From IMG/VR virus record IMGVR_UViG_3300031994_000007: a stretch of DNA of 64,000 nucleotides. The stretch is one strand, 5' to 3'. The notes below the pieces were generated by a model. That model was not told the DNA's origin and searched no databases. It saw nothing but the letters and a program-made list of their open reading frames with translations. Position numbers and translations under genes: made by a program. The stretch comes from a virus. Shown one piece after another: positions 5,613 to 41,597 of the stretch (position 1 is the first letter of the stretch; every line of letters starts with the position of its first letter).

Positions 5613-5647
5613 TGTACTTTTTACCCCTTTCTTTTTATTTTATTTTT

Positions 5648-5686
5648 CCTATAATTAATTAAAAAAAATTTTTAATTAATTATAGG
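5648..5686. repeat. perfect palindrome / bidirectional terminator-like hairpin
   Basis: CCTATAATTAATTAAAAA|AAATTTTTAATTAATTATAGG inverted repeat between the 1605-aa gene and fiber A. Confidence 0.5.
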
Positions 5687-5776
5687 AACATGGCCAAATC
5701 AAGGGAAGTCCAATGTGAATATCTTTTGTTAGTTCATAATATAGATTAATTACATCTACATTTTTAAATGTATTAT

Positions 5777-13900: not shown

Positions 13901-14222
13901 TATTATAATTAGTTTTTTCTAATTTTGCAGTTGTAATATTATTCTCAATTCCAATTTCAATTTTTACTCTTGTGGTTAATGACCAATAAATATTATTTAT
14001 ATTTAAATTATTAGTTGTTAAAGTCAAAGAACAAGTACGTCTAACACAGGAGCGTCCATCTAAAGAGATGGACCCCCCTGTAACAATTCCTTCAATTCTT
14101 TCAATAGGATAATTATCTAAAGTTAAAGAGGTAATGCGAGCATATGTTATTTTATTTCTATTTTGATCTAATTGATATAAAAATTCAAAATCTTGCAATG
14201 GAATCTATCTTGCTTTTGTCAT
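10956..14222 (-). CDS. large tail/baseplate protein with distal-tail-protein-like N-terminus (1088 codons, many in-frame TAG)
   Basis: N-term 'ITSLTLDNYPIERIEGIVTGGSISLDGRSCVRRTCSLTL' resembles siphophage tail-component (Dit-type) N-domains. Single frame across fragments 13884, 13080, 12252, 10956. Length is a multiple of 3. Terminal TAA. Confidence 0.5.
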
Positions 14223-17200
14223 ACTACGCCGTATCCCCTTTCTATAGTATCAATATAAGTAATCGTTAACATATATAAATATTCAGCAAACTTCTAATAA
14301 ATTTCTTTTGTTAATCTTTCTTTATCAACTTTAATTGTTGTTAATTTATTTAATAAATTCTATATTTCAGTTAATCGTGTCTCATATTCATATTTTAATT
14401 CTCGCAAATCTTCTTCTGCCGCTGCATCTCCACGTATCTGTGTTAATAATTTATGATATAAATCTAAATTCTCAAAATATGCTGTCTCAATATTATCTAA
14501 ATATGGGTTTGATCCAAAGCCTATCCCATAATACAGATATGTCCAGCGCATACCAAGCATATCATGGAATATACGACGTAAACCACCATTTCCCTAATAA
14601 TATAAAGATGTTTTTTGACGTTCAAAATCATGTTCATTTTTAACATCAGCAGGAACATAACCCTAATTAGGATCTCTTAAATAGTAATTTTTATTTGAAT
14701 CATAAACTTCTAAAGTATTATCAGCATTGACATGGAAATATTCATGATAATTTATAAAATCAATACATAATTCTGGATAATTTGTAAAATAAAGATCTAA
14801 AGTCTACAAATCTTTTTTCCAATTTTCTTTATCTAAATATATATAAGGCACATAAGTTTTTTTGTCATCTGCTTTAATGAAATAACAACCTTCTTTATAT
14901 GCTACATCTGTAGATGTCACTTTTTCAATCAATGGGAAATTTTTATAAAATTTATCTTCAAAATCTCTTGCTTTTTGAATAATTGCAGAAAAATCAACAT
15001 GAGAATAACGGGCGTCACCATAAAATTTCTTATATTTTTCTAAAGAATAAGCAATTCCAAAATTATAAATTGGTGTTTCATTATTATTAATATGTAAAAT
15101 TTCTTCACGAGAAATAATATTCTAATTAATACCAACTCCAAAAGGTGCACGATTAAATAATAATTTTAAATAATGGTCACATTTTTGACGATAAATACTA
15201 CAATTCTAATTAGTTTTATTAATTAAATTAGATAAATCTCTTCCAATAGCTCTACTTGCCTATTTTGCTAAAAAATAATCTTTTAAAATTAAATTAGTAC
15301 TAGTTAATGTATCAATTTCTTGTTTCCATTTAATAATAGCCTTAGTATAATAATCTTTTTTTTGACGAGCATTAGTAATAATATTTTTTAATTGTTTCAT
15401 TTTACCGTCATTTTCTTTAATACCTTCTAAACGATAACCAGCTAATGTAAATTCACTTTGACTAACTACTTTTTCCCAATGAGCTTCCTAGTCCTAGAAA
15501 TCTGCCAATTTCGTTTCTAAGTTAACTAAATAAGTAATTAAATTTTTTAGATTTTCTTTATCATCAGGATCATCAACTTCAATATTAGCATTTAAATATA
15601 CAGATTTATTAGCATGAAAATAAGCTGCTATTAAATTAAACATTGTCATGTTAGCTTCTAAAATACCATAAAAACTGCCATATTCTTCAGCAAAAGGATT
15701 TGTTCTCTAATCATTTGGGATATCATGAGTAATTTTCCCTAAAAAGTTCTTTAAATAATTATATTTTTTAAGAGGGGTTATCAATAATTTATCATTTTCA
15801 TTAATTTTTAATCCTAAATTGGTATAATAATCTAAATTAGTAATTTTAGAAATATTTAATTGTTTTACATCCCAGTCATATAAGAAACTATAAAAATATC
15901 CTGAACAAGTTATTGGAGCACTATCAGTTAACCAAACTAACTTTTTACCTATCGAAGCATAATATTTTACTGTAGCATCAAATTCGTTATCATCCATATC
16001 TTTATAATCAAAAGCTAATACCAAATGATTAATAGAACTGCCTTTTATATAAATTTTAGTATCTCTCTAAAAAGGATTTTTATAATAAACTCCATTACTA
16101 GAAATATTAACATCTATAAAACTTCTTTGATTTTCTTCAATTGGAGCTCTTAATAACTAATAACCAGAAGGAATAATTCTGGCACCTTCTGCATAACCTG
16201 TAGTAATTATCTATGAATTTGGACCAATAGTGCGAATAGTTGGATAATAATATGGCTCGAATAGACTATTACTAGACTATTCTAAAATAACCAATTTATC
16301 ATCTAATCCATCATCTGATAAAAGCATTCCTAATGTACAACTTCTAATTGAATCAGAATTTCTTTGTCCTGGTCCATAAAAAATATTAGCCATATGAGCC
16401 TCAAGCTATTTACATCCATTCTAACGTGTTTCTACTTCCTCTGATTCTAATAAAGTTAAATAATTCGCAGCATCTGGATCTGTTTCTTCATCTAAAATAT
16501 ATAAAATATTTTTATAAACAGATAAGAAATAATGTGATAAATCAAACTAAAATTTATCTGTGCCTGGAGAATACGCTGGGTTGGTTGTTTCTGGATCGTC
16601 ATAACCATGCTATAAATCTTCTTCAATAGAATTGTATTTATGTAAAAAATCAAATGCTTCTAATTCATAAATATCTATATATTCTTTTATAAAATTACCA
16701 TACTCTTCTCCGGTATGAACAGTATTATCTAAATGTCCTAATTGTTGAATTAAAGCATTCTAATTCTAATAAATCCAGTTAACATAAGATGCCAAAGTCC
16801 TGAAATTATCTAATATAGAATCATTATAAACTAAAATATCATAAAAGAAATGTCTAGACTCTAAAACATCATTCAATTCATCAGCCAATAATAATTGATT
16901 TAAAACAGTACTATACTAATCTCTTACAGCATTTTCTTTATTATGCAATTCATTAATAACATTATCTAAATTATCAATTTCATCTTGAATAAGCTATTTA
17001 TTTTTAAGATAAATATTTTTGGTTTTATCTAATTTTTCAATACGTTCAGCATATAAAGTATCTTTATGCTTAATCTATTGTACAAGCTATTTAGATTCAT
17101 TTTCTACGTCAGCTGGATAATATTCATTTAAAAATTCTTTAATAGAAGTAGCCTAAGACTAATTAATTTTATCAGTGAATAAATTTAAAATAGCAAAAGC

Positions 17201-20200
17201 TTTATCATTCGCTTCTATTTCTTTTGTAAAGAAAACTAAATTCTTTAAGTCAAAAGGATTAGATACTAACCAATCATTAATTGCTCTTTCTGATACTGTA
17301 ACATATTCATCTCTAATTTGACTAATTTTATTATTAAAGGTCTATTCTACACCTCGATATGGATAATTATAATTTTCATATCTAAAATTATAATTACGTC
17401 CCTCATTACCAGGATGTTTTTTAATATCTTCTAAAATTGATATAGCATTAGTCCAAATTTTTTGTTCTGCTTCGATTTCAGCACCATACAAAGAATAGGC
17501 TTTATCATAAGCTGAAATAGCACTAAATTGCATACTTAAATATTTCTTTAAAGATCCGTTTGCATTATTCTTAATTTCATTATATAACTGCTCTAAAGTC
17601 TTTTTTGGAGTAAATAATTCACAAATCTACTCATATATTTTTTCATCTGTATTATCGACATAAGTATATTTAATTTCATTTTGAAGATCTAAACTAACCT
17701 GCTATCTTATAATATCTGTAGTAACAATTCTATCTTCTTGTAATATTTCCATTAAAGAAGCTAACTAATTAGCGTTTAAAATATTATTGCTATTAATTTC
17801 ATGTCCAACATCTTTTAAATATAAAGCTTTTATTCTATTTAATTTAGATGTAGCATGATTATTATAAGCAGTTAATAAATCAATAAGTGCATCAGCATTC
17901 TTATATAAATAAGTAGCTGTCGCATTTTGAATAGTAGTTAATAAATTCCCAGCTCTATCAACATTTAAAGATAACAATCTATTGACTAAATCAGCTTTCT
18001 GTCTGCTAATACGTAATAATTCATCAGCATATTTTTTATTTAATTTATTTAATAAATAATCATAATAAATAATAGTATGTTCAGGAGGTGGATTAGAATC
18101 ATCATAATCAGCAATATCAAAACCTCCAATTAATTCACCCTACTAAGCTTGAAGTTCAGCAATTTGCTATTCATAGTTATTAATAGTAGCTTCATGACGC
18201 AATTTTTGTTCTTTATAATAGTCAACATCAATCTAATAACTATCATGAATATAATCATAAAACTTATCTCTATTCTAAACAATAGTTACTGGTAATTCAT
18301 TTAAAAATAAACCACCAACTGTTTCAGCAGAAAAAATATCTTGCTATGTAGCTCTTGAAGATGATAAGTTAGAAATTCTTTTTTCAATTTCATTTCTATA
18401 ATTTAAAATAGTTTCGTTTCCTGATGTCTAATTCATATAACTATTGAAATCTTTTTCAATTTTTTGTGCAGCTGTTTGCTATTCTAATAATGTTTTATAA
18501 TGACCATCTTTAATTAATGTTGTTTTAGCTGAGTTTAATTTTGCTTTTATTTCAGAAACATTAGAAACTTTTCCATTTGAATCAAATTTTATTTCGATAT
18601 CTAAATAACCCAATTGTTTAGTAATCATATATTTATTCTATACTTTAATTAAGGTATAATCATTAAGACAATTAATTGGTGGATCAATATCTATATCAGT
18701 ATATAATGTATATAACTATAAAAAATAAGCAATTTCTTGAGCTATTTTTTCTCTATGATCCCATAATTTAACTTTCTATTCAACAATCTATTCATTAACT
18801 GCCTCTTGAACTCCCTTATATATTTCAGCATGAGAAGTAGATTCTAACTAATAGTTAATAATTTTTAATTTATCTTTAAGAATATCTCGTTCAGATTCTA
18901 ACTTATCAGATTCGCCTAGAGCATCTAATACACTATCCAACTATTTGCCATAAGTTCCAGCAACAGTTAAATAATCATTTTTTGCTTGTCTAACTTCATA
19001 ATTAGTTTCTTCTAAATCATAATCTACAGTACGTTTCTAATAAGTAATATTTGCTACAACTCCATTACCCAATCGGATTAAATCAATATCATCTAAATTA
19101 TACATTAATAATTCATTTATATCATTTAAATAAATATTATTATCACCAATAATTTCTGGATCAGAAATTTCTTCTCCTTCTTCAGTTTCAGGATTATAAT
19201 AATATGATTTGAATGTCTATAATTCATTAATAGCAAAACTAGGATCATATTCAGTATTTCCGCTCCACCAAGAATTAGTATAATTGTCGTAATATTTATA
19301 TCCTGGTGTATTAGAAGGTTCCCAATCCTATATATCTGGGTTCCAAATAAATACCTAAAAAATGGTCAATGAATTCTTCTATCCAGTAACAGCACCAAGA
19401 GTAACAATATCGTATACACTAACATTTCCACTATCCTAAAAATTATCTTTTTCATCAATCTCAATAACATCTTCATAAGATGTTTCATCTTTTTTCTATA
19501 CATATCTCATAGTCTAAGTGCCATTTTCTAAATAATCTAAAATTTTCTGATTATTTACATATCCCTAATAAAAAGGAGTTATCCCGAACATTGTATTAGG
19601 TCCGATTGGTTCAGTTTTATAAGCAAAAATAGGAATAATATCTCTTTTTTTGACATGTAAAATTTCTATTTTAGTAGCTTTATATTTTTCAACAACTACT
19701 TTATCATCCTATAATGATTCAATATTATAATTAATATGATTATTTGATAATAAATCATCATAAACATGTTTTACGCCATCGGCTTTTCTCCAACGATTTT
19801 TTACAACTCCATCAGCATTTGGGATACCATAACAATTTAATCGTAAATCAAAAGGTTCTAATAAATTATTTTTTGGTCCAACATATTGCTCACCAGCTTC
19901 TGTTGATAAATTAATACTAGCAATAGCATCAAAACGAGTTAATGTTAAAGTCTAATAAGAATAAATTAATTCTCTCTCAAAATCATTATATGTATTTACA
20001 TATGGATTAACTTTTATCCAAACTTTACTGATATGTCTTCCATCGTCATTAACTTCTAAACTACCAGTAACTCCAATAGTATAATAAATTGTGCCAGTAT
20101 CCTAATCGCCAAGAGAAGATTCATCATATAATATTTTTACTTCATCCCCCGGAGCAAAATGCTAAATCATAACACTATTTATGCTAATTCCTTGTGGAGT

Positions 20201-22348
20201 CATTAATACAAATCCTTGATCATCAATAATATCTGCATAATCAGGATTTTTAGCTAGCTAAATCATTTCTTGTACATTAACAATATTCCACTATTCTTCA
20301 TAACTACTAACACTTTTTGGTGTAACTAAACCATATTTAATTAAATTTTCAAAAGAAATTTCATCAATTTCATCAATCGTAGCCGATACATTATACAATA
20401 AACGACTAATACGTTCTTCCGGCGTCATAGACACGTTTAAAATACGAACTAAATAATTTCCTTCAGTTGAAGATCTAAATAATTTAACTTTTCCATCATT
20501 CAACCAATCTAAAACTTTTAGTCTAAAATAGCGTTCTCCAGAAAAATTCTCACTTGTTAAATTTGTATCTGTTCTTACATAAGCAAATGAATCACTATCT
20601 TCTTCTGGGACATCTCGTGTTACATGGCCATCTGTATACAAATTTAATAACCTATATCTAAATTTTTGCTAAGGTTTGCGAACCATAACGTATCTGACTT
20701 CAGTATATAATAATTGTTTAGTATAAGGGTCATAAACATCATTTTCTTCTTTTACAAAATATACATTTTGTTCAACTGAATTTTCAATTTCTTTTGTTGA
20801 ATAATAAATATCTTTTGATGAAATTCCTCTATATTTTGTCTATTCTAAAATGCCACTTTCTTTTAATTCATCCTAAGACAAAAACAACTATGCTGTATCA
20901 CTTTGATAAGAAATTAAACCAGAAATACCAAATTCTTTATAAGATACAGAACCATTTCTAAAAATAAAAGGATATTTACTTCCAATTGTTTCAATCTTTT
21001 TTTCTGGAATAGCTGTTTTAAAAGATTTAATTTTTGAATTATAACTAATTTTTAACTAACGAGTGCCATCACTTATAAATATATGTTCAAAATCTGCAAC
21101 TACAGTATCTTCTATTTCTTCGGTATCCCCATTGGCATTAACAATAGGATGGCTCTAAAAAGTCATAGCTGAATATACTTCATGAATATTATATTGCTAA
21201 AGGGCATATTTATATTCAATACCTTGCTAAACAGTTTGATCTTTATGATGAATAGTAGAAGGTTTTTGGCTCTATATAGCAAAACGAGATACTTCAACCC
21301 ATTCTGTAAAATTACTTTCAGCCGAACTTCTTTTAATTACAAAATTTCCAGTATAAGCAGCTTCGCCATAAACTGCTGATTCAGAACGTATATATAAAGC
21401 ACGTTCTCCCATTAAATATTCCCATTCTTCTAAATTCCCATCAAATTCTATAAAATTTAAATCCTATTTTCTAAAATAAATTACTTCATCATCATAATCT
21501 TTAGTAGGATCAGCAAGCTAATAGTAACGCTGCCTTAATTCCTCATTTTCTTCAAATTCTCCCTCTAGACTTACATCAATATAACCATTTTCATAGTTAT
21601 TTTTTGCTCGTAATTTTATTTTATATTCTGTAGGGACAGAAGCTATCTTCATAATTTTATATCTTGGACTTGATACAGTAAATCCATTTAAAGTAGTAAC
21701 TATATATTCTAAATAATAAGTATCTCCTGAATTAAATTCACTATAAATACGCCAAAAATCCTATGAAGTATCACTATTTGTATCCTAAGTAGCATCATGG
21801 ATATTTTCATTAGAAGTTAATTTTAAAACTCCATCCATATCATATATATTAAATATATATGAATATGCTTTCTCAGTACTGTCACCATAAGTAGTATCTT
21901 GTGAATAAACACCATAAAAAGAATCATTAAACATATTAATATTACCTGATGTATATCCATTAATAGATGCAGTTGGCGCGGCAATACATTTTATAATTCC
22001 AACAGTAGAATAATATCCAACATTATCATTATGATCGACAAAAGCAATCTAAACACGATAATATTGACTTTCATTAAATAATTTCTTTTTTTTATCAAAT
22101 AAAAAAATAGCATTACCTGTTTCTAAGTCATGCTATGTATCTATATAATCAGATACTAAAAAAGTATTTGTAGATGTAGTTCTAATCCTTATTGCGATAC
22201 CTTTAATAGAGTTAACACTAACAGCACGATTTAACCCAAAAGGAATTTTTAAAGTTGTTCCTAAAAAGTTATTATTATTATTAATATCATAAGTATTAAC
22301 AAATGCTGGTAAACTCCCCTCTAATTGAGGCGGATAAAGTTTAGCCAT
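14219..22348 (-). CDS. giant virion structural protein (2709 codons; tail/baseplate-associated, dozens of in-frame TAG)
   Basis: RBS AAAGGAGGATG before ATG 22348. All >=60-aa fragments (22133, 20291, 17765, 17342, 15707, 14360) share one frame separated only by TAG. Ends TGA 14219 overlapping the next ATG (ATGA). Confidence 0.5.
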
Positions 22349-22393: not shown

Positions 22394-22972
22394 TTATATT
22401 TTAAGTTTATCTTTAATAGACACTATATCTGCTTTTATTGATTCAAGTTCTCGATCAATAGTATCTATTTTTTCATTAATAATACTTATATCACTTTCAA
22501 TAACTTCAATTGCTTCTTCAAAGCTATTCTTTAAAGTTTCAACATAGTTATGTTCATCATTTATTAATTTTTTATAATCTTTTTGTATATAATCATGTTC
22601 ATAGGTGTTAGAACGTTTAATTGTATTAAAATCATCTTTTAATAGTTCTACCTATTTTATTTTAGTCTCTTGGACTACTGTATTTTGATTATCAGGGATA
22701 TATCTATCCATAATAACTTTTTGTTTAGTATAGTCATTATCAGGAATTCTAATATACACTTTATCTCCAATTCCATATGTAATAATATCCGAATATGCTG
22801 TAAATCTAATATTATTATCAGTAGTTACCTAATAACGACCATAATTAGCTCGACTATTATCAGTAATTGTACCAATAATTGTTTTATCAAACTATACATT
22901 TTCCAATCTTTTTGTTGTAATAGCATCAATAGCTTCAAATAACTGCTAAACAATTTCATTTCTATCTGCCAT
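22394..22972 (-). CDS. hypothetical tail protein (192 aa, 4 in-frame TAG)
   Basis: RBS AAAGGAGAA. Coiled-coil-like C-terminus. TAA at 22394. Confidence 0.5.
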
Positions 22973-23047
22973 TTTACTATTCTCCTTTATCTCAAAAATC
23001 TTCTATATAGATTTAAAAACAAAATAAATAAAATTACTAATAATTGT

Positions 23048-23095
23048 CCAAATAAAAAAAAGTACAAGTTTTTATAAAAAACTTGTACTTTTTAA
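23048..23095 (-). terminator. strong bidirectional intrinsic terminator downstream of tape measure gene
   Basis: AAAAAAGTACAAGTTTTT-ATAA-AAAACTTGTACTTTTT perfect inverted repeat flanked by A/T runs. Confidence 0.6.
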
Positions 23096-23191
23096 TTATA
23101 TCTTTCTATTTGCATATTGAATAGCTCGATTTACTAAATTATCAAAAGCTTCTTCAATTTCATTATGGTCTGTAGCATCTGGAAATACTGC

Positions 23192-26100
23192 TTCAATATG
23201 AACTTCTTGCTATAGTGTCTATTCAAAACCACCAATAGATGGTGAGAATAAATTTCCTAATCCCTATGCCATAGACATTGCTGATATATCAATTTGACGT
23301 AAAATAGTAGCAGCTTCTAATAAATTATTAGTATCATTTTCATTAAATATCTATTCATGTTCATGAAGCACTGCTATCTTTCCATCTGGTCCCCAACTAC
23401 CAGTATAACCACCAGTATCTAATGAGGTGGCTTCTCGTAATTCAGCATCAAATTTATCAGAAATCGCCTTAAACTATTCTTTATTTATTTTACCACCAGA
23501 ATAATTTCTAGAAGCAGTTAAGTAATCATCTAAAGAATCGTGCAAATGATTATATGAACGTAATGTTCCTAAAGTTGCAATTAAATCATTTAATGAGGCG
23601 ATCATTTTTTCATTTTGCTAAGTCATTTCTATAATTCCATTAGCATATTCTTTTTCCCAACTTACTGCTTGGGCAAGAGCATCACTAAATTTTTCATTTA
23701 ATAAATTTGATAAAGCAAAAACTTGATTTTTTGTTTCTTCAGATGCGTCACCTATATTGGTTGTTACTGATGATACCTAATTAGCAAACTACGAAATACT
23801 AGCCCCAGTAAGCTCTAAAATACTATCTAACATTTTTTTACGATCATCTAATGCATCAGACATATCATATAAAAATGAATCACTAGCTGTTATCCAATTA
23901 TCCATATAATCTTGGATACTATCCATACCGGTTAAACTTGCTAATTTTGTTTTTTCCCATAAATCTATTAAATCAGCTCCAGTAGCCTAATAAACACCAA
24001 GCATTCTATCCATAGTATCAGCTTGATTATTAAATGCGTTTAAACTCTAATCATTAAAATAATTCTATTGATTAGCTAACCATTCATTTAACTCTTCAAT
24101 TCGTGCTCTTCGTTCCTAATCATCTAAAGTGGTATCTTTCATAATTTCAGCAAGAGTTTCTCTATAAGTTGTCTACACTTCTAAAGCTTTTTCCTATAAT
24201 TCTTGAATATAATTATCATTTAACTCTTGATAAGCATGGAGTTTATCTTCGTATTGCTATTCAGCTTGAGCAATTTCTTCTTGATTTGCTGTATAAATAT
24301 ATCCCCAATTACCTTCTGCATCACGAGATAAACGAACAGTATGTTTAGCATCTTGTGCAATCTATAAATCATTATAAGCCTGTTGCATTTCTAATTTAGC
24401 TCTTAATGCATCTAAATCATATTGACTTAATTGCACGCCTTCTACTTGATATTCATTTATCTAACGCTAAATTTCAAGTAATTCTTTTCTATTTGTTACA
24501 CCACGAGTATCACTTAATGTTTTATTTAAGTCTCTCTGTAATTTATTCAATTCATATAATTTATCATAATCTTGCAAATACAAATCTTCACTTTCAGATT
24601 GTCTACCAAAAGCTTCTTTTAAATAATCTAAACTACCAAAAGCACCGGACATAGCTTCATCAAATTTATCAGTAATATCCTCAATCATCTATTCAAAAAT
24701 AGCCTAAGCCTATTCCATAGTTTCTTGCCAAGAACTAAGATATTCTTCTTCAGAATCTTTTATCTCAGAATCTAATGTTTCTAATAATTCTTTATACTCT
24801 CTGGCCGCATCTTCTCCGCCTTCCGCTAAGGCGGTATCATATAGAGCTTGAGCTTCTGATCTTTGCATTACTAAATCTTCATAACGTTTTTTAGCAGCTT
24901 CAATAGTATTCTTAGAATTTTCTAACATAGCATTATTTAAGTCAGAAATTAACTTTTTCTATTCTTTATTAACTGAATGTCCCATTAAATCAGTTATATC
25001 TTTATACACTTGTAAAGTATTTTTATAATGAGAGAATAAATCATATTGAGTTTGGATTTTATCATTAAATTCATCAAAAACATTTAAAATTTTATCAGCT
25101 ATATTGCCGCGCATTTCTAATAACGCTTGATTTGCTTCCAATATACTATCTCGCCAATCTCTAATCTATTCAACTTGATCTCCTGTAAAATCACCATTTT
25201 CAATTAAAGCTTTAACTCTTTCATCATCTAAATTAGATAAATCAGCCATAGTCATACCTTTTGACTTTAATAAATCTATTAATCCTGTTTCATAAATCTT
25301 TATTTTATCTAAAGTATTAGTTGTCTATTTCCCAAAAATAGAAATAGCTTCAGCTGCTTTATAAGCATCATCAGAATATTTTTCTAAGAAATATTCTAAT
25401 AATTTAGCTTCATCATCTGCTATACTAATCTTTAATTCAATTTTAGTAGTAATTAATTCAAAGAAAGCATCGTTTAATTCATCAATACCTGTTGCAGTTG
25501 AATAAATTTGATCTTCTAATTTACCTAAAGTCTCTTCATACTAAGAAATTGCTTTTTTAGCATCTTCTAAAGCGGTTTTTTGCTCATTAATAGAATCTGG
25601 AATTTCATCACCTGTAGCATTATAGCTATTTTCTTCATCAATAAGAGCGTTTTCCATATCCAATAGAGCATCTTGAATTTCTTGATAATTAGAGATAACA
25701 CCATCTTTATCAATCTCAACTTTAATTCCAAGACTACCCAACTATGACATCATATCTGATTTATCTTGAGAAAGAAATTCCTAAATTTCTTTCATATAAT
25801 CAGATTGAAGCTCTAAAGATTCTTTCCTTAAAGATATTTCTTTTTCTAATTGAGCAATTTTTTCAGCTCCAAATGCTCTCTCTTTACGTCTAGCAGCTTC
25901 GTCCTAAGCTTTTTTAATATTATCAAGTCGTTTATTAACAGTATGATAACGCTCACTAGCATCAGCTTTGACATGAGATGTTAAAGAACGAGGTTTCTTT
26001 TCAGAGCCAGATGAACTACCTCCGCCGCCACTAGAGCCACTAGATTTACTGCCCCCAGTACCACTACTTGTATTACTTAACTTGTGGTGACTAATATTGC

Positions 26101-29100
26101 CACCCTAGGCCCCTGTAGCGGTAATTGTTTCTACTTTTAAAGCATGCCCTCCTGGCTTTGCATCAATCATTTTAGCAGGTTTAGTTTCCATATGACCTGG
26201 TTCTGCTATTTCCATATAACTGAAATCTCTTGTTCCACCTTCTGCACCATTTGATAGTTGCTCTGTTTTCATAATATAAGTAGCTGGAACAAAATATGAA
26301 AGTTCACTTGGCACCTCTTCTACGCCAGGATCTTCATCAGAAAAAGTAAGATTATATCCCATTTTACCAAAAGCTTCATTAGCTTGTTCGGCAGTCCATC
26401 CTGCTGCAGCAATAATTTCATTACATTTCTCTAATAATGGACCAGTATCAATTACATCGCCTGGGTTTAAATGTAAATTATATAATTCATCCTATAATGT
26501 ATCCATAGCAGAAAGAATATCATTAGTTAGAGCATCAAAATCCATCATAACATCTGGACCAATATCAAAAAATTCTCTGATACTGTCCTAATTAGCTTCT
26601 ACTTGTTGTCTTATTTCATCAAAAGAATTATAAATTGTATCATCAGTAGCTCTCTCAACCAATGTGTCATAAGCAGTTATATTTCCATCTAATGCTTCTT
26701 TCATTAACCAAGCATTTTCAGCACTTTCTAAAAATGATTTTGATAAATGAGCATCTTGACTTAAATTCAATAAATCACTATATGTATTTTCTAAGTCCTG
26801 TAACATCTATATAGTGATTTTTCCAGACTAGAATCCTTCTAACCAATTTTTCCAACTAGACTAGAAACGTTTTGCAGCTGCTTCGGCACGAAGAAGTTCT
26901 TCGGCTATTAAACGTATTATTTCAGGATTATTTAAAGCTTCTTTATCAAGATCATATAATTCTGCTCCATACTCTTTCAAAAAAGCTATTCTTTCTTTTA
27001 GAGCATCATTACTTATATCAGGATCTAATTCTTTAAGTTTTTCAGTATTGATGCCATCAACTGCTTCTTCAAAATTATGAATAGATTCTTCATAATCTTC
27101 AATTTCTTGCGTTAATTCAGGATATAAATTTTTTAAAGATTCAAATATTTGTAATAATCTTTCATAAACTTCAGGATTAGCATTTTTAAATGCTTCTATT
27201 CCTTCAATACCTTGGTATGAGCCACTATTCTAATTATATAAATCTTCAGCTATTTTTATTTCTGGAGATTTATTTTCCCCTTGAATTGCTTGAATAAAAC
27301 TTAACATACCTTCAATGCTTTCACCGGCTTGATTATATTTTTCTTGATAACCTTCTGCAGTGTCAGCAATTTCTTTTAATGCATTAAAACTTTCAATAGA
27401 ATCTTGTAAACCTTTATTAAATTCTTCTAATACAATCGTATTAAAGATTTCCTAAAATTCTTCAGCGTCTCCTTTAAAGCTATAATCCCCAGTCGCTGTT
27501 CTTGAAAAATAATGCCTTAATGTATCAAATTCAAATTCTGATTCATGAGCAGCTAAATACTCATTAATCTAATCTTCATACTGCTATAAATAGCCATAAT
27601 CATCTGAAGAAATCTCTTCCCCATATTCTAAATTAGAAATAACTTTTTTTGCATTTTTATATCTTTCAGCCGCTTCATCAAATGTAATTCCAGCAGCTTC
27701 TTTCATTAACTCAATAATCTTTTCTAATGGTACTTTAAAGTCATCAGCGGCAAAACCAGCAGCGATTAATTTATCAGATAATTTACTAACTGTTGTAGTC
27801 TGCCAATCGACGCCATCTAAAACATCACTTAGTTCGCCGGCCCTATCACCAGCTGTTTCAAACATTTCTTTTAAGCTTTTAAAACTTGTTAAGTCATTAC
27901 CCAAACCAATTGCTTCTATTAACTACTCACCAATTCTTTTATACTAATCAGGAGAAATAGTATCAAATTTGGTTAGATTCGTCATAAAATCTTCTAAGAA
28001 TTTTTGAGTATATTTAGGTAATTCTTGGAATATTTTACTAAAAGTATTTTCCCAATCTTGGGTAACTCCATCAAAAACTTCTTCAGCTTCTAATCTATTA
28101 GCATATCCTAAATTATGAGCCTGTCCAACAAATTTTTTACCAAAAGTTTTTAATTCTTGTCGATTAAAACCAGATAAATCTGGATTCTAATTTCTAACTA
28201 TCGCAATTATAGCATTTAGCTAATCTTCATTATTCTGAAACTATGCTGCTAATACATCTGCTGCTTCTACAAAAGACTATGCATTTAAAATAATTTGTCT
28301 GACTTTTTCAACATCAGCTTCTGGTCCACCAGCTTTAGCGATATCAACATCCATTAATGCCGCAGCTAAACCAGCATTATCACTTTTTAATTCCTAAGCC
28401 ATTTTAATAACAGCTGAATTTACCTAAGTACTATAAGCGTTTTCAGCAGTTGAAAATTCATCTAAAGCTGTAATAATTGGCTCTAAATCTTCCATTTTAG
28501 CAGATAATGACTCAAAAAAGTTAATTATTTCTTCATTATCAAGCCCACTTAAAAAATCTTTATCAAAACCTAGTCTATCTAATGTATTTCTATATAAAGA
28601 AACCTCAGCTTCGTCAGCTGCTTCTGCTGCTCCCAACTTGTCATAAGGATTTACATTTAATGCTTTATCAAAAGCTTCAGCACGAGCATCTTTGATCTCC
28701 TATCCCATCTTTGGAAAATAATATTTTAAGAAAGTGCTTAACTCTTTATTATTTTTAAGAGAATTAATAGCATCATTTATTTCTTCTTCGGTATATTTAC
28801 GGAGCCCAAGGAAACCACTCTAAACTACTCCCTCTATAGCACTATCTACAGCAAGTTCTTTTTCTAAATATGTATTTCTTGCTAGCTCTACTTGTTTTTG
28901 AACTTCATCAATTCTACTTGCTCGCTAAGCTTGTTCTAAATCAGCTTCTTCAAAAATTAAAGCTCCATTACTATTAATTTTTACTTTTGAAGCCAATTCA
29001 GGCCATAACTCTATTAATTTTAAAGCTTCTTCATTCGTTTTCTCAATAGCTTCTCGCCATTCTTTAGTGCCTTCTGTTAGCTAATCAATACTATTTCTTG

Positions 29101-32100
29101 CTTCAGTATAATCTTCAATAGTTGACTTTAACTAATTATATGTTTCAGTAGCTTTTTCAAACTCTTCTTTAGCTTTTTTAGTCGCTTCTACCTATTCGGC
29201 ATAAGCCTATCTTGCTTTATGGGTAGCATCATAAAAACTTTTAATAGCGATAACGACCCCTGCAAGTATTGCAATAACAATTGTTGCTGTAGCTGCAAAG
29301 GTAGCAATCGCTGCTCCAGCTTCACTCAATCCAGCTGTTAAAGCACCAATAGCTGGCACAGCACTATTGATACTAGTACCAGTTTTTATAGCAAATTTTC
29401 CAATACTTTCAAATAATTTTGGTACAGCATTGGCCCCTTTTATCATACGGTCTAAACTAAACATCAAAGTGCCCGATGCCGCCGCCGTAGATAACATTTT
29501 GTCTGACATACTCTTGGAAGTATCATTCCAAGTTTCTTTTAAACCTTTAATAGTATTTATAAACGAAGCTAATGCAGTTAACCCACTAGCAACTGTTGTT
29601 AAGCTTTGCCCAATACTCTATAACTCTCCTTTAACTTGCTATAAATATTCTTTTAAAATAGCCGCAGAAGAAGACATGTTAAAGAAACCTGTTGTGACAT
29701 CTTTACTTGCCCCTTGAACATTATTAAAATGATCCTCTAAAGCTCGCATAGCTCCATCTACATCAGTAGTAAAAGGTTTAATTATGTTTCTTATTGTCTC
29801 TAAACTTGTTTGAATATCAGTATTTAATTCTCCGCTTCTACCTTGTATCTTATTAAAAAAGGCTTCAGCAGCCTAATTGACTTCATCGAATCCTTTACTA
29901 GGATCCTTTATAGCCGCTTCAAATTTAGCTTTAAATTCATCAAAAAGTCTTTGAGTATTTGTTCCATATACCTCTTCAACTGTATGGCCAAACTATTTTG
30001 TAGATTGCTCTATTCCATTTATTATAGCCTCAAATGATGTTAAATTATTTGTATTTTTTGAAAAATCTATTTTGGTAAATGACTACATAGTTGTTTCAAC
30101 TATAGCCAATTCTTTCGCATATTTTTGTAAATTACTTATCTAAGTATCATATTTAGTTTTATCAAATTCGTTTGAAGTATTTTTTAATGCAAGAAAACGA
30201 TCTACTACTTTAGCCGCATTTGCTTCAACTGATTTAAGATTATCTTTTACTCCAGTACAAGCTGTTTGCAAAGTCTAAAAAGCTTTAATGGCTTCACTTG
30301 AGTATCCTTTTCCTTCTAAAAATTTTTCTACTGTCTACTTTCCCGAATGTGCTGCATCTTCAACTGCTTTAATTTCTTGTTTAAGTAATTTAAATCCTTC
30401 TTGAGCTTCTTTAGTGTCAACACTTGTTAATTTTCCTAAAATATCATCAAAACTACTACTACTATCCCAAAACTACTTATCATTAACTTCTACATTATTG
30501 CTATGTCTCTAAGCTGCATTAGATATTCGAGCCTTTTCTATTCCAAATTGTTCTTGTGCTTTCTATAACTCTTTACCAGCTTCAATTGTATTCTATACTA
30601 AAATATTGTGCTATTCTTGTAATAATGTTACTATTTTAGCTTCTTCTGCTGATAACTATTTCTTTTTATTTAATTGCTATTCTAAAATTATATTAGAATA
30701 AGCCGCCTATGACTTATAAGCGGTTCCTGCAACTTGATCTTTTGTATGAGTAGCCCCTGCATACATATTAGCTAATTGATTATTAGCATCCTATTTCATA
30801 GCAATAATTTCTTTTTGAGTATATCCAAAAAAGAATCTAATACGCTATATTAAATTATCAATACTAGAACTTAATTGTGGTCCAAAAATAGTAAGAAAAG
30901 CAGTGCTAACGACAGATAATACACCGGGCAATCCGCCCAATGCTTTAATTAAATTATTAATACCATCAAGATTTTTTTCTATAAAATCATTAACATCAAT
31001 AAAAAAATCATCATTTATTAATGATGAATAAATAGCTTCAGCAGCAGCTTTTACTCTATCTCTTGCTGCTTCCCAGCCTTCAGCATAAATTTCAGCTTGT
31101 TTATTTAAAGTTCCCTCAGAACCTTCAGCAATTTGTATATTATCTTTAAATTTATCAAAATTATCAAAAAGTGCAATTAAATTAGTATATTGACGCACAC
31201 CACCAACAGTGTTTGCGACTGTGATTCGCGAAGTTTCATCTAATGTCTACCATTTCTCTCCAATATCAAATAAAATAGTATCCATTTCTTTTAACTTTCC
31301 ATTAGCATCTAATACGTTAACACCTATTTTAGCTAATGCTTCTGTGTATTTAGTTAATCCTACGCCATCTTCTAATGTTTTACCAAGTTTCAAACTTTGT
31401 AAACGAGCGAAAATAGTCCTTAAACCAGTACCTACAGTATCAGCACTCTAACGAGTCTATGCAACAATAGTTGCTAAAGCAGCAGCGGCATTTTCATAAC
31501 TTAAACCTACTGTACTAGCAACTGATGCAAATTTTTCCATACCAACAGCAATTTCAGCTTGGCTGGAAGCAGTCGCCGCACCTAAAGCAGACATAACATC
31601 AGCATAATATTCAAGTGATTTACTTCCATCATCAAAATTATTCCAGACAGCTGTCATCTAATCAGATACAGTTTCAGCTGTCTATCTAGAAACATTTGCC
31701 AATTTTAAAGTTGCTTCAGTTCTACGTGCTACTTCTTCATCAGTTAAACCCTATTGATAATAAATTAAAGAAGCATTAGTATAATCTAATGTAGTAGAAC
31801 TTAAACTACGCGCTGCTTTATTAGCACGATCAGCAAATAAAGACATTTCTTCGGCTGACTAATTAGTAACAATACGAATATTATTTAAAGATTCATTTAA
31901 ATTCTAAGCATATCCATATGCACTGGAGATCCCACCAACTAATGTGTGGATAACACTTGAAGAAATCTAAAATCGTGCGACATTCTTCAATGTAATCCAC
32001 ATTTGATTAATCATACTATTACTACGTTCTAAAGAAACATTAGCTGTACTAATAGATTGAGTTAATTGCAAAAATGCCTATTTTCCATTTGCACCTAATT

Positions 32101-32398
32101 TAGATAAGGCAGAGCCATAATCCCCCAATGTTTTTCCACTAGTTTTTAATGAATTATTAAATTTTACTAAATCTAATGATCCATCTGTCCGCATAGCATC
32201 CTGTAATTTTACTTTTAATTCAGTGGCTGCTATTTTTGCTTTATTAATTTCAGCACTAATCCCAGAACCACCTAATCCAATAGATGGCTAGTTTAAAGCT
32301 TTATCTAATAAACGATTTAATTCTTGAATAGAATTTTTTGCCTAACTTGTATCAGCAGTAAATCGCATATCAACATTTAAGTGTTTTCCTCCACTCAT
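23192..32398 (-). CDS. tail tape measure protein, TP901-family core (about 3068 codons; about 45 in-frame TAG)
   Basis: RBS AGAGAAAGGAG before ATG 32398. N-terminal 'NIRIVTN*SAEEMSLFADRANKAARSLSSTTLDYTNASLIYYQ*GLTDEE' matches the conserved TMP core. All fragments from 31457 to 24467 are in one frame broken only by TAG. C-terminal 'GGYTGSWGPDGKIAVLHEHE' motif. TGA at 23192. Internal TAA/TGA not exhaustively excluded. Confidence 0.75.
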
Positions 32399-32551
32399 TG
32401 GACTAAAACTCCTTTCTCTCTATAACATTATATATAAAAAAGAAAAACGGATTATTACCCATTGTAAAGAATAATAATCCGTTTATAAAAATCATATTCT
32501 TCTATTAATAAATAATAAATATATTAATAGAATTAATTTAATTAGGCCATT

Positions 32552-33079
32552 TTAAGTTGTCTTATCAATAATTTCTTTTAATTCTTTTATATTATTATCA
32601 TTTGCTATTTTATCTTTTATAGTATCTATATCTAAATTTAAATTACTATAATCAGTCTATAAAGAATCTAAAATGCCATAAACAGAATTGCGATATTCCA
32701 TAATACTAATAATACTAGCATTAGTATGTTTTTCAAACCAATCACAATCATCTTTTGGAATTAAATCCCAAATCTATTTCATTAATCCTGAAGCAACAAA
32801 ATTATCATATAATTTCATTGGATTCTCTTTTTGTTTATCTGTAAACTTAATATTAGTATAAGCATATAATACTTCCATTTTAATATTAAAATCAATGCGA
32901 GCAGTATTATAAAATCCTCTTTCATCAATAGAATTATTAATAATATTTGTTAATACTTCTAATTTCTTTTCTAATGGAAGAAATTGCTTTACTTCAATTT
33001 GTTCATTGCCGCAATGAATAATAGCAATTTCATCAAAGTTTGGTTTTAAGCCTAATTTAGTATATGTGACTTGTGCCAT
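32552..33079 (-). CDS. putative tail assembly chaperone (175 aa)
   Basis: Immediately upstream of the TMP. RBS AAAGGAGG. 3 in-frame TAG. TAA at 32552. Assignment by position only. Confidence 0.35.
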
Positions 33080-34324: not shown

Positions 34325-34412
34325 AATATAAACTCCTAAAAAAAAAATAAGGAGAGAAATATTTATATATCTCTCTCCTTTAATTTAATTAACCATTAGC
34401 GTTTTCAATTCT

Positions 34413-35447
34413 CTAACTAAGTAAATCCTCGTGAGGATCAACACCAGTTGTAACACCATCAACTGCATAGACACCATTAGGTGTAGCACCACGGTGGAGC
34501 TCTTGAGCACTTTCTTCTTCAATGATTTGAACAACAGCAAGAACTTTCTTACTATGATCAAAACGAGTGTAATCAGGGAATGCATCCATAGTGAAAGTAA
34601 AGCTTGATGGATCACCAGAAGATGCCATAGTAAATGTAAAGTTAGATTGAATCTTGCAGTTAGGAATTATGAATTCAGCAGGCATATCTACACCAGCTTC
34701 ATTACGGAAGAGGGTAGAAGCTTCAAGATAGAAGTTACCACCAAATTTATCGGGGGTAATTTCAATTTGTTGTGCAGCTGCTTCACGAGCTACATAGAAA
34801 TCAACAAGAACACTATCAAACTTAATATCATCAATTTGACCAATCTTATATCCAACATTATCATTACCGGTATGAGTATCATCATAACAATTATGCTCAG
34901 CAATAGTAATAACATATTTTCCATTTTCATCAGGAGTAATTGCTCCATGAACTGGAATGTAAGGCTCAGTTACGATAGCGCCATCACGCATAAACATAAC
35001 ATAAGCAAAGTTCTCACCCTTATTTTCTGGTAAATAAGGTTCCTAAGATAATGGAATTGTAACTGAAGAACTAGTACTATTACCTTCAGCGATAGAAGAT
35101 TTTAAAACATCACCAGCATCAATAGTTTCTGTAACATGTTGATAAATTGGTTTCCCAGCTGTAGCAGTTACAAGACCAGCACCAGAAAGAATCATAAATC
35201 CTTCTGGAGAAATAAGAGCATCTTCCATAGTGAAAGTTACAGTTCTTTCACCTTCCCATGCTACTAAACGAGCATTACCACGTCCACCTTGGGCATATAC
35301 TGTAGTAGCTGCACCCTCGAGACTAGAAGTTTTTAAAGTATCAAAATAAATAACCGGTTCATTTTTATAGAAAATTTTATTGCCAACTTGCATACGGTTC
35401 TTTGCACGAAGAACTACATCACAAATCTCACGTACACCAAACTTCAT
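34413..35447 (-). CDS. putative major tail protein (344 aa; a single in-frame TAG at 35043)
   Basis: Two track ORFs (35043..35447 and 34413..34997) are in the same frame, separated by one TAG. Position upstream of chaperone/TMP. GC noticeably higher than neighbours and nearly TAG-free, which suggests high expression. Confidence 0.45.
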
Positions 35448-40751: not shown

Positions 40752-40772
40752 TATCTTCTTTCTCCTTTCTTA

Positions 40773-41597
40773 TTATTGAATACGCATTAATTTTACGCCT
40801 GGTTGATGATCTGGCATAGTATAAACTTTAACAACTTGCCATACCATATCAGATGCAGTTGGAGTTGCTTTCTTAGTAAGAATACCCTTATTGTTCTTAT
40901 CAGGAACAAGTTTATCTTTAAGAGCTACAGTATTATCGGCAATCATATTTGTAGTCATAATATCGCCAACATGAGTCTTAACAAGACGTGGAACCATAGT
41001 AGTTCCTTCTGGCATTAATTGTTCGGTGTAAGGTCCAACAATATGGAATGGATCTTCATTGTAATGAAGTTCATACATATCAGGAGCAGCAGTTACATCA
41101 TCAACTGGGAATGACTTTGCATTATCGCCTTCACCAAAAGTAACTTTACCATTAGCAAATTTAATGCTACCATTTTTTGCGTCAACACCATTGCCATTGT
41201 AGTAACGAGATTGTCTATCCCACATTTCATCAGGTTGAAGATTACGATCCTTATCATAACCACCACCAAATGGGCTATATACACGAGCTTGATAATTATC
41301 CTTAATCATTGCGAACTCAGCATCAATTTGATGATCGCGATAAAGTTTAATTTCATTATATACTAATAACCATTCGCCAGGACCAGTAAAGTCTACAACG
41401 CCCTCAGCATAGTCATACTTTGCAAATTGACCATTTTCAAGAATTTGAATATCAGCAGCGGCTGGGAGTTGAGCATATACCTCTTTAGTAGCTTCACCAG
41501 AGAGGTGGTTAGCTTCAACTTGACCGTATCCATAGCCATTAGTCTTAATATATCCAGCTTGGCTTTCAATATTTTTCTTTAAGAAATCACTAAGCAT
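40773..41597 (-). CDS. putative head decoration / abundant capsid-associated protein (274 aa; no in-frame TAG)
   Basis: Uninterrupted ORF. RBS GGAGGA. Lies between the scaffold and major capsid genes. Confidence 0.35.
   Translation of the reverse strand: MLSDFLKKNIESQAGYIKTNGYGYGQVEANHLSGEATKEVYAQLPAAADIQILENGQFAKYDYAEGVVDFTGPGEWLLVYNEIKLYRDHQIDAEFAMIKDNYQARVYSPFGGGYDKDRNLQPDEMWDRQSRYYNGNGVDAKNGSIKFANGKVTFGEGDNAKSFPVDDVTAAPDMYELHYNEDPFHIVGPYTEQLMPEGTTMVPRLVKTHVGDIMTTNMIADNTVALKDKLVPDKNNKGILTKKATPTASDMVWQVVKVYTMPDHQPGVKLMRIQ

What the first reader, a model, noticed from the sequence alone, without database searches (positions are those of the whole stretch)
23192..32398. Exceptionally long tape measure gene (~3068 codons) predicts a very long tail
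A single TAG-interrupted frame of about 9.2 kb carries the TP901-type TMP core near its N-terminus. At about 0.15 nm per residue this implies a tail of roughly 450 nm. A +1-frame ORF (about 23095-23337, ending ...EEAFDNLVNRAIQYANRKI) overlaps the 3' end and may be a frameshift product or a small overlapping gene.
Basis: partly seen in the sequence, partly recalled or inferred. Interest (0 to 1): 0.5.

Follow-up and report, generated by a model that had tools for sequence, protein, structure and literature searches.

The report
Giant TAG-recoded phage tape measure gene
This is a real 3,100-codon phage tail "ruler" gene that only reads through if the stop codon TAG means glutamine; it predicts a tail of about 430-470 nm, but similar genes are already known in cultured and gut phages, and the suspected overlapping gene does not exist.

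Summary
The long frame is real. It lies on the minus strand, from ATG 32398 to TAA 23096-23098, and encodes 3,100 aa. It has 83 in-frame TAG and no TAA/TGA, where about 207 would be expected by chance. TAG reads as Gln: it aligns most often with Gln in standard-code orthologues (P=1e-10 and 2e-4). The protein passes the curated cut-offs of PF10145 and TIGR01760 (TP901-type tape measure). It sits after a YomU-type tail tube gene and a YomO-like gene, is predicted almost all-helical, and is colinear with the 2,673-aa TMP of cultured Enterococcus phage VRE9_4.

The "+1 ORF ...EEAFDNLVNRAIQYANRKI" is simply the C-terminus of the same frame, so there is no frameshift or overlapping gene.

Calibration with SPbeta (0.140 nm/aa) and the lactococcal 949 group (about 0.145-0.15) gives a tail of roughly 430-470 nm.

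It is not unprecedented. WRP3 has a 3,334-aa TMP, P23-45 has 5,002 aa, and the TAG-recoded gut Phassviruses have 3,149-3,209 aa (published 2023). At least 752 metagenomic clusters carry the same C-terminal module, and most of the best-scoring ones are 2,400-4,100 aa. Verdict: a new member of a known kind.

The parts
23096..32398 (-). Tape measure protein CDS: ATG 32398-32396 to TAA 23098-23096; 3,100 aa; 83 in-frame TAG read as Gln, against 94 CAA/CAG
   Evidence: family assignment
32409..32414 (-). Shine-Dalgarno-like AAGGAG, 10 nt upstream of the ATG
   Evidence: upstream 20-mer GAGAAAGGAGTTTTAGTCCA; inferred function
30890..31939 (-). TP901-type TMP core: TIGR01760 at residues 154-503, with PF10145 at residues 193-400 (31199-31822) inside it
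30719..32398 (-). Conserved N-terminal module, residues 1-560; aligned in 91-117 of 118 long homologues
30878..30952 (-). Hydrophobic segment 1, residues 483-507
   Evidence: Kyte-Doolittle, 19-residue window >1.5
29219..29329 (-). Hydrophobic segment 2, residues 1024-1060; strongest peak 2.67; probable membrane-active hairpin
26099..30601 (-). Sequence-variable, length-conserved spacer, residues ~600-2100; residues 1200-1500 align in only 1-6 of 118 homologues; predicted helical
   Evidence: (low-confidence model on the 92%-identical orthologue: 62% helix, no beta domain)
26100..26629 (-). Mosaic patch, residues ~1924-2100. No blastn alignment to the closest relative, which is otherwise 97% and 92% identical; protein identity drops to 62%
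25961..26362 (-). Non-helical Pro/Gly-rich stretch, residues ~2013-2146. It contains the Gly/Ser linker at residues 2099-2138 (25985-26104). The Gly run and the following RYH motif are conserved across the family
23099..25951 (-). Conserved C-terminal module, residues 2150-3100. On the 92%-identical orthologue, AF2 gives pLDDT 69.5, 79% helix, helices up to 75 residues and no beta
23099..23338 (-). It is residues 3021-3100 of the TMP, in the same frame
32552..33079 (-). Context: 175-aa gene directly upstream (phrog_30570). Its counterpart in relatives has a weak PF27287 YomO hit. It is the candidate tail assembly chaperone, and no alternative frame is open at its 3' end
34389..35447 (-). Context: tail tube protein (phrog_2729), 75% identical to a protein carrying PF27173 YomU_Tube
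14219..22348 (-). Context: orphan 2,709-aa ORF downstream of the TMP, presumed tail-tip protein, separated from it by a 192-aa ORF (22394..22972)

Best explanation
The feature is the tail tape measure protein (TMP) gene of an uncultured, low-GC (30.7%) siphovirus with an SPbeta/EF1/phAss-type morphogenesis module, whose late genes are written in genetic code 15 (TAG = Gln).

Shown: it is one 3,100-codon gene. TAG behaves as a Gln codon. The protein has the TP901-type TMP core, two hydrophobic segments, a long spacer that varies in sequence but not in length, a Gly-rich hinge, and a conserved all-helical C-terminal module. It sits in the canonical position: tube, chaperone-like gene, TMP, tail-tip genes.

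Inferred from established TMP biology (lambda gpH, TP901-1): a few copies form an extended helical bundle on the tail-tip initiator, tube subunits polymerise around it, and polymerisation stops at its end. Protein length therefore sets tail length, here about 430-470 nm. On infection the TMP is ejected, and its hydrophobic segments help form the channel across the envelope.

Also inferred: with 83 TAG codons the protein can only be made once TAG is decoded almost completely. At 99% per codon only 43% of chains would be full length, and at 95% only 1.4%. The gene is therefore locked until a phage suppressor tRNA, not encoded in this window, is active late in infection.
For: One frame with 0 TAA/TGA where ~207 are expected, and 83 TAG where 71.5 are expected from composition, so TAG is used like an ordinary sense codon. 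Allowing TAG as sense doubles ORF coverage of the window, from 35 kb to 75 kb.

TAG positions align most often with Gln in standard-code orthologues: 22 of 94 against cultured Enterococcus phage VRE9_4 (background 4.5%, P=1e-10), and 12 of 56 inside the TMP against standard-code homologue P0052 (background 6.5%, P=2e-4).

PF10145 scores 102.8 bits, TIGR01760 scores 116 bits, and ten PHROG TMP families are hit. A full-length family profile finds solved phage TMPs (Gp14 of 9m8o, 'Tape measure protein' of 9l9p, 'Tape measure' of 8vjh) and otherwise coiled-coil proteins, with no enzymes.

The order of PHROG families from TerL to the TMP matches VRE9_4. The tube protein is 75% identical to a YomU_Tube-family protein and the capsid protein 86% identical to a YonB-family protein. 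The TMP is colinear with the VRE9_4 TMP at residues 20-506, 2149-2776 and 2988-3099.

Ruler signature: the 120 best homologues are 2,726-4,089 aa (median 3,074, IQR 2,979-3,155) although the middle ~1,500 aa barely align.

Helicity: Pro is 1.1%; the C-terminal module is 79% helix at pLDDT 69.5.

Calibration: SPbeta YomI is 2,285 aa with a 320 nm tail; the WRP3 TMP is 3,334 aa and 949-group tails are 470-500 nm.
Against: No virion has been seen, so tail length and siphovirus morphology are inferences.

No tRNA, and therefore no suppressor, lies within the 64 kb window.

No G/GT-type frameshift signal was found in the upstream gene.

A conserved ~130-residue non-helical stretch with a Gly/Ser hinge at residues ~2013-2146 could be a processing site. 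If the C-terminal third is removed before or during assembly, the tail would be shorter.

The model of the middle region has low confidence (pLDDT 39).

The 949-group calibration pairs the WRP3 TMP length with tail lengths measured on related phages (phiL47, 949), not on WRP3 itself.
Confidence: 0.85

Rival explanations
1. The gene encodes a polyprotein or fusion. A ~2,100-aa ruler is joined through the Gly/Ser hinge to a separate ~950-aa C-terminal module that is cleaved off or has a different job, so the tail would be about 300 nm rather than about 450 nm.
For: There is a conserved Gly-rich hinge with a ~130-residue non-helical stretch. Sequence conservation changes sharply at residue ~2150. 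Proteolytic processing of TMPs is known (lambda gpH; my own knowledge). 24 of the 150 best hits to the C-terminal module are shorter than 2,400 aa.
Against: In 126 of the 150 top representatives the module is the C-terminal end of a protein of 2,400-4,128 aa. The one short hit I examined is an artefact of a scaffold gap that splits a longer recoded gene. The module itself consists of long helices with no globular or enzyme fold. It is also part of the single annotated TMP of cultured phage VRE9_4. Total length, not N-part length, is what the family conserves.
Confidence: 0.12
2. TAG is a real stop (standard code), so the region is a string of short genes or a decayed pseudogene rather than one protein.
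For: Under the standard code the region breaks into many ORFs of 60-117 aa. GenBank's phAss-1 record annotates the equivalent region as 17 hypothetical proteins. No suppressor tRNA lies in the window.
Against: There are zero TAA/TGA in 3,100 codons (log10 P = -93). TAG aligns with Gln in standard-code orthologues. Full-length colinear homologues exist both with TAG (L007 has 114, L006 has 85) and without it (P0052 has 0). The same recoding is seen in TerL, portal and the tail genes across about 50 kb. Code 15 has been shown by proteomics in other gut phages (PMC9523058).
Confidence: 0.01
3. The phage is a myovirus with a contractile tail, so the usual siphovirus tail-length reasoning and flexible-tail picture would not apply as stated.
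For: A table in PMC6435515 lists the related Enterococcus phages EF1 and EF5 as Myoviridae.
Against: That table gives no microscopy of EF1 or EF5. No sheath-like family was found among the genes between capsid and TMP. The tube belongs to the YomU family of SPbeta, which has a non-contractile 320 nm tail. Babkin et al. interpret the Phassvirus TMP as siphovirus-type.
Confidence: 0.05

Closest known systems
Phassvirus group TMPs (phAss-1 OQ749652, BK046881, BK025033; Babkin et al. 2023, PMC10607447)
   Same: Human-gut Caudoviricetes using TAG = Gln in late genes. They have a single TMP ORF of 3,149-3,209 aa interpreted as siphovirus-type. phAss-1 is the best annotated hit to our TMP, and its recoded TMP frame is 3,155 codons stop-to-stop.
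   Different: Only 26% identity over 47% of the protein, with no megablast match at the DNA level, so it is not in that genus. phAss-1 carries three tRNA-Sup(CTA) genes; none lies in our 64 kb window.
Enterococcus phages VRE9_1-4, EF1, EF5 and H1 (cultured, ~134-142 kb)
   Same: The same order of PHROG families from TerL to the TMP. A 2,673-aa TMP (phrog_34405) that is colinear with ours at the N-terminus, the C-terminal module and the extreme C-terminus. Giant tail-tip ORFs downstream.
   Different: They use the standard code. Their TMP is about 430 aa shorter. Protein identities are 23-53%. The small genes between tube and TMP are arranged differently.
Lactococcal 949-group phages (949, phiL47, WRP3)
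   Same: Low-GC genomes of ~115-130 kb with PF10145-type giant TMPs (WRP3: 3,334 aa) and measured non-contractile tails of 470-500 nm. They show that a ruler of this size really builds such a tail.
   Different: Similarity is limited to the core (residues 125-520, 21.5% identity). They use the standard code and have a different C-terminal region.
Bacillus phage SPbeta YomI and its morphogenesis module
   Same: TerL (YonF), YonG, YonD and the TMP core are detectably homologous. Relatives' tube, capsid and connector genes fall in the Pfam YomU, YonB, YomW and YomV families. SPbeta is a siphovirus with a 320 nm tail and a 2,285-aa TMP.
   Different: YomI is annotated as carrying a lytic transglycosylase; no such domain was found in our protein. 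It uses the standard code and is temperate.
Thermus phages P23-45 and P74-26
   Same: The record holders: a 5,002-aa TMP with a tail of 800 nm to nearly 1 um. They show that our gene is not the extreme.
   Different: Unrelated lineage. The N-terminal part of the P23-45 TMP is a virion RNA polymerase; no embedded enzyme was detected here.

Membership tests
Tail tape measure protein, TP901 type (PF10145 / TIGR01760) | Matches the curated family models above their trusted cut-offs | tested here: met
   PF10145 102.8 bits against 33.2; TIGR01760 116 bits against 28.8 on the window's own N-terminus
Tail tape measure protein, TP901 type (PF10145 / TIGR01760) | Gene lies downstream of the tail tube and chaperone genes and upstream of the tail-tip or baseplate genes | tested here: met
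   YomU-type tube at 34389..35447, YomO-like gene at 32552..33079, then the TMP, then ORFs with tail-protein hits (phrog_1887 at 11394..14222)
Tail tape measure protein, TP901 type (PF10145 / TIGR01760) | Predominantly alpha-helical, elongated protein with hydrophobic segments | tested here: met
   Pro 1.1% and two hydrophobic segments. C-terminal third 79% helix at pLDDT 69.5. Middle 62% helix with no beta, but pLDDT is only 39. Both models were made on the 92%-identical orthologue
Tail tape measure protein, TP901 type (PF10145 / TIGR01760) | Protein length determines tail length | not testable with these tools
   This needs electron microscopy or deletion mutants. Indirect support: length is conserved (IQR 2,979-3,155 aa) while the spacer sequence is not
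Tail tape measure protein, TP901 type (PF10145 / TIGR01760) | Upstream chaperone expressed with a programmed frameshift (G/GT); common but not universal | tested here: not met
   No alternative frame is open at the 3' end of 32552..33079, and the only XXXYYYZ heptamers are not in the zero frame
Genetic code 15 phage (TAG = Gln) | In-frame TAG in conserved essential genes, with TAA/TGA as the only terminators | tested here: met
   TerL has 13, portal 8 and the TMP 83 in-frame TAG; all minus-strand late ORFs end in TAA or TGA
Genetic code 15 phage (TAG = Gln) | TAG positions correspond to Gln in standard-code homologues | tested here: met
   Gln is the commonest partner: 22 of 94 (P=1e-10) and 12 of 56 (P=2e-4)
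Genetic code 15 phage (TAG = Gln) | Phage-encoded suppressor tRNA(CUA) | tested here: not met
   ARAGORN and Rfam both find nothing in the 64 kb window. The rest of the genome is not available, and some recoded phages lack such tRNAs (PMC10607447)
Genetic code 15 phage (TAG = Gln) | Peptide-level proof of Gln at TAG | not testable with these tools
   This needs proteomics. It has been done for crAss-like phages (PMC9523058)
Proposed genus Phassvirus | Substantial nucleotide identity and genome synteny with phAss-1 (members share 80-86% identity) | tested here: not met
   No megablast match of 24 kb of the module to any GenBank phage. The TMP is only 26% identical

The most novel reading that the evidence does not exclude
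The ~180-residue mosaic patch (residues ~1924-2100) runs into the conserved Gly-rich hinge and overlaps the gene's one non-helical stretch (residues ~2013-2146). It could be an exchangeable cargo or host-interaction cassette carried inside the tail lumen and delivered into the cell with the TMP. That would be a small-scale analogue of the RNA polymerase embedded in the P23-45 TMP, rather than inert ruler material. It differs completely between two phages that are otherwise 92-97% identical across the gene.
Probability: 0.08. Interest if true: 0.6.

Novelty: new member of a known kind. Interest (0 to 1): 0.3.

Why it matters
On its own the gene is an ordinary though very large tape measure gene. 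It has three uses.

First, it is a clean worked example of how standard-code annotation breaks up code-15 late genes. The GenBank record of the nearest named relative still shows 17 fragments in the equivalent region.

Second, it belongs to a very large family (at least 752 clusters at 50% identity) whose total length stays near 3,000 aa while the spacer sequence drifts. This implies that siphoviruses with tails of about 450 nm are a common morphotype in animal and human guts, which has hardly been observed.

Third, 83 TAG codons in one essential, low-copy gene set a quantitative requirement: decoding must be about 99% or better per codon. Any model of how these phages switch code late in infection has to meet that.

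Tried and rejected
1. Frameshift or overlapping gene at the 3' end: rejected, because only the TMP frame is open there.

2. G/GT-type frameshift in the upstream chaperone-like gene: no open alternative frame and no in-frame slippery heptamer.

3. Internal tandem repeats as the source of the length: TRF finds only trivial two-copy repeats of 9-21 nt.

4. Hidden enzyme or cargo domain. Pfam finds only PF10145. A single-sequence PDB search finds nothing. A family profile against the PDB finds TMPs and coiled coils only. Foldseek on the C-terminal model finds nothing at E<=0.001, and the weak hits are SMC, MukB and JetC arms. The middle-region model was too poor (pLDDT 39) to use for a fold search.

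5. Stand-alone C-terminal module: the one short hit I examined is a scaffold-gap artefact. The other 23 short hits were not inspected.

6. Host assignment. Relatives sit in MAG bins ranging from Lachnospiraceae to Methanobrevibacter, many on contigs of 120-165 kb, about phage-genome size. I read this as mis-binning and drew no host conclusion.

7. Measured tail length for the closest cultured relatives (EF1, VRE9): none found in the searchable literature.

8. The Pfam copy available here lacks the PF27xxx SPbeta families, so they could not be scored directly on the window's proteins. I used identity to relatives with precomputed hits instead.

Full report
OBSERVATION. The window is 30.7% GC. 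On the minus strand, the frame covering 23192-32398 has 83 TAG, 0 TAA and 0 TGA, whereas the other five frames carry 87-424 TAA/TGA. Stop-to-stop the frame is 23096..32482. The best start is ATG 32398, with AAGGAG 10 nt upstream; homologues align from residue 3-4, which supports this start. The frame ends at TAA 23096-23098, so the gene is 9,303 nt and encodes 3,100 aa. From the base composition of the gene, about 207 TAA/TGA are expected in 3,100 codons, giving log10 P(none) = -93. TAG, in contrast, occurs about as often as composition predicts (83 observed, 71.5 expected), so it is used like an ordinary sense codon.

The other two minus-strand frames in 22990-23400 are full of stops. There is no overlapping gene and no frameshift.

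IS TAG REALLY SENSE, AND IS IT GLN? Treating TAG as sense raises ORF coverage of the window (ORFs of at least 100 codons) from 35 kb to 75 kb. It yields a continuous minus-strand module from about 50 kb down to 1, covering terminase, portal, capsid and tail genes, all ending in TAA or TGA.

Two independent tests address the amino acid. In the first, window proteins were aligned to orthologues in cultured Enterococcus phage VRE9_4, which uses the standard code. Gln was the commonest partner of TAG (22 of 94; background Gln 4.5%; binomial P=1e-10), and the substitution spectrum (K, R, E and so on) matches that of canonical CAA/CAG codons. In the second, the TMP itself was aligned to homologue P0052, whose gene has no in-frame TAG. 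Gln was again the commonest partner (12 of 56; background 6.5%; P=2e-4).

Close relatives carry the same recoding: 85 TAG in L006 and 114 in L007. No tRNA or other Rfam family lies in the window, so the decoding apparatus must be encoded elsewhere in the genome or supplied by some other route. phAss-1 has three tRNA-Sup(CTA) genes (PMC10607447).

WHAT THE PROTEIN IS. PF10145 matches residues 193-400 (102.8 bits against a cut-off of 33.2). TIGR01760 tape_meas_TP901 matches residues 154-503 (116 bits against 28.8). Ten PHROG families annotated as tail length tape measure protein are hit, the best two being profiles more than 2,600 positions long. A family profile searched against all PDB sequences finds phage tape measure chains first (9m8o Gp14, 9l9p, 8vjh) and otherwise coiled-coil proteins, with no enzymes.

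The gene context is canonical. The order of PHROG families from TerL to the TMP (portal, capsid 4088, then 30998, 3853, 31155, 6123, 4051, tube 2729, 30570, TMP) matches that in VRE9_4. Against a recoded relative with precomputed Pfam hits, our tube protein is 75% identical to a YomU_Tube protein and our capsid protein 86% identical to a YonB protein, and the YomW and YomV counterparts are 68-70% identical. TerL, YonG, YonD and the TMP core also match SPbeta directly. The phage therefore carries an SPbeta/EF1/phAss-type morphogenesis module, and SPbeta is a siphovirus.

ARCHITECTURE (CDS numbering). Gln is encoded by TAG 83 times and by CAA/CAG 94 times, with the TAGs spread evenly along the gene. 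Pro is 1.1% of residues. Hydrophobic segments lie at 483-507 and 1024-1060. Across 118 long homologues, residues 1-560 and 2150-3100 are aligned in about 91-117 of them, while the middle is poorly conserved; only 1-6 homologues align across residues 1200-1500. Total length is nevertheless tightly held: the 120 best hits are 2,726-4,089 aa, with median 3,074 and IQR 2,979-3,155. Conservation of length without conservation of sequence is what a molecular ruler predicts.

A Pro/Gly-rich non-helical stretch (~2013-2146) contains a Gly/Ser hinge (2099-2138). The Gly run and the following RYH motif are conserved across the family.

The middle segment, run as a single sequence, gave a low-confidence model (pLDDT 39) with 62% helix and no beta domain. 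The C-terminal 941 aa, run with a 26-sequence alignment, gave pLDDT 69.5, 79% helix and single helices of up to 75 residues. Foldseek against the PDB gave nothing at E<=0.001, and the weak hits were SMC, MukB and JetC coiled-coil arms. There are no meaningful DNA tandem repeats.

FUSION RIVAL. The C-terminal module was searched exhaustively against 1.84 billion cluster representatives. There were 752 hits at E<=1e-30. Among the best 150, 126 are at least 2,400 aa (median 2,993, maximum 4,128), with the module at the C-terminal end. The one short hit I inspected (P0127) is an artefact: a run of N in a 7-kb scaffold splits a longer TAG-recoded gene. The module is also part of the single annotated TMP of VRE9_4. 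I keep about 12% for proteolytic processing at the hinge, which cannot be tested computationally.

TAIL LENGTH. SPbeta has a 2,285-aa YomI and a 320 nm tail (PMC8270828), giving 0.140 nm per residue. In the 949 group, the WRP3 TMP is 3,334 aa and tails measure 480 nm (phiL47), 500 nm (949) and 470 nm (phage 111) (PMC3888941), giving about 0.144-0.150. P23-45 has a 5,002-aa TMP and an 800 nm tail, giving 0.16, but its N-terminal part is an RNA polymerase (bioRxiv 10.1101/2022.12.01.518664). Applied to 3,100 aa, these give 434-465 nm, or up to 496 nm with the P23-45 ratio.

MECHANISM. Shown: one gene, code 15, TMP family membership, canonical position, a helical ruler-like architecture, and family-wide length conservation. 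Inferred from established TMP biology: the protein forms an extended helical bundle on the tail-tip initiator, tube subunits (YomU-type) polymerise around it, and its end sets the tail length. On infection it exits first, and its hydrophobic segments help build the trans-envelope channel.

Also inferred is a translational lock. With 83 TAG codons, the full-length yield is 0.99^83 = 43% and 0.95^83 = 1.4%. The gene therefore needs near-complete reassignment rather than leaky suppression. This fits the proposal that recoding gates late and lytic genes (bioRxiv 10.1101/2021.08.26.457843). In this window the capsid gene has no TAG and the tube gene has 2. In relative L007 both have none, while its TMP has 114. 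The 52-64 kb region has higher GC and small plus-strand ORFs with no in-frame TAG.

COMPARISON WITH WHAT IS KNOWN. The nearest named relative is phage phAss-1, at 26% identity over 47% of the protein. Babkin et al. 2023 describe the Phassviruses as TAG = Gln human gut phages with TMPs of 3,149, 3,150 and 3,209 aa, and they place Enterococcus phage EF1 in the wider group (PMC10607447). Our phage is not in that genus: there is no nucleotide-level match to any GenBank phage. Cultured precedents of similar or greater size exist in WRP3 (3,334 aa) and P23-45/P74-26 (5,002 aa, the longest known tails). Typical TMPs are far shorter; medians of about 650 to 1,870 aa were reported across 43,468 TMPs (PMC13585406).

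HOST AND ENVIRONMENT. Relatives occur in MAG bins from buffalo, yak, chicken, rumen and human gut samples, assigned to many unrelated lineages including an archaeon. Several sit on contigs of 120-165 kb. I interpret these as phage contigs swept into bins and draw no host conclusion.

VERDICT. The long frame is real and is correctly interpreted as a giant code-15 tape measure gene. Its 3' boundary and the overlapping-ORF or frameshift idea are wrong. It is a new, divergent member of a known and very large kind, and not exceptional within that kind. Interest is modest (0.3). The points that may deserve follow-up are the family-wide length conservation near 3,000 aa, the mosaic non-helical patch before the hinge, and the read-through efficiency that 83 TAG codons require.

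Noticed in passing
window 26100-26629 (-), TMP residues ~1924-2100: Against the closest relative (ENA ERZ27257205 contig k141_6577355) the gene is 97% identical at nt 10-5769 and 92% at nt 6300-9303, but about 530 nt in between do not align at all. Protein identity drops to 62% across residues 1800-2200. This looks like a swapped cassette just before the conserved Gly/Ser hinge.
   Followed up: partly
window 14219-22348 (-): A 2,709-aa ORF with 75 in-frame TAG lies downstream of the TMP, separated from it only by a 192-aa ORF. It has no significant PHROG hit. It is conserved in the close relative (2,712 aa), and its first ~1,140 aa are 30% identical to an 1,823-aa protein in L007. It is an orphan giant, presumably a tail-tip protein.
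   Followed up: partly
window 5777-10594 (-): A 1,605-aa ORF with no PHROG match shows, by eye, several ~150-aa internal repeats (motif ...W.G.DI.TG...I.G..IN...LTEED....GL..GHI..W...). It may be a receptor-binding or decoration fibre.
   Followed up: no
window 39528-41597 (-) compared with the rest of the late module: The major capsid gene and its upstream neighbour have 0 in-frame TAG and the tube gene has 2, while the TMP has 83, the 2,709-aa ORF 75 and TerL 13. In relative L007 the capsid and tube genes also have 0 TAG while its TMP has 114. The most abundant virion proteins seem to avoid the recoded codon.
   Followed up: partly
window 52000-64000: GC rises to 38-39%, against 24-32% in the late module. 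Coding switches to small plus-strand ORFs (70-150 aa) with no in-frame TAG, ending in TAA or TGA. This is probably an early module compatible with the standard code and transcribed divergently from the late genes.
   Followed up: partly
whole window 1-64000: ARAGORN finds no tRNA genes and Rfam finds no families at gathering threshold, even though about 50 kb of genes need TAG decoding. The suppressor tRNA, if the phage has one, must lie outside the window.
   Followed up: yes
window 44888-45244 (-): A 118-aa ORF between the terminase and portal genes is 53% identical to the annotated homing endonuclease that occupies the same position in Enterococcus phage VRE9_4.
   Followed up: no
L001 (GenBank OQ749652, phage Phass-1) 5246-14713: The public record annotates the TMP region as 17 separate hypothetical proteins under the standard code, although the accompanying paper re-annotates it with table 15. 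The recoded frame is 3,155 codons stop-to-stop.
   Followed up: yes
L012-L024 (GTDB genome contigs): Family members appear in MAGs assigned to Lachnospiraceae, Muribaculaceae, Mollicutes, Treponema, Gastranaerophilaceae, Bacteroides and even Methanobrevibacter, several on contigs of 120-165 kb. This probably reflects mis-binning of phage genomes, which could contaminate species-representative MAGs.
   Followed up: no
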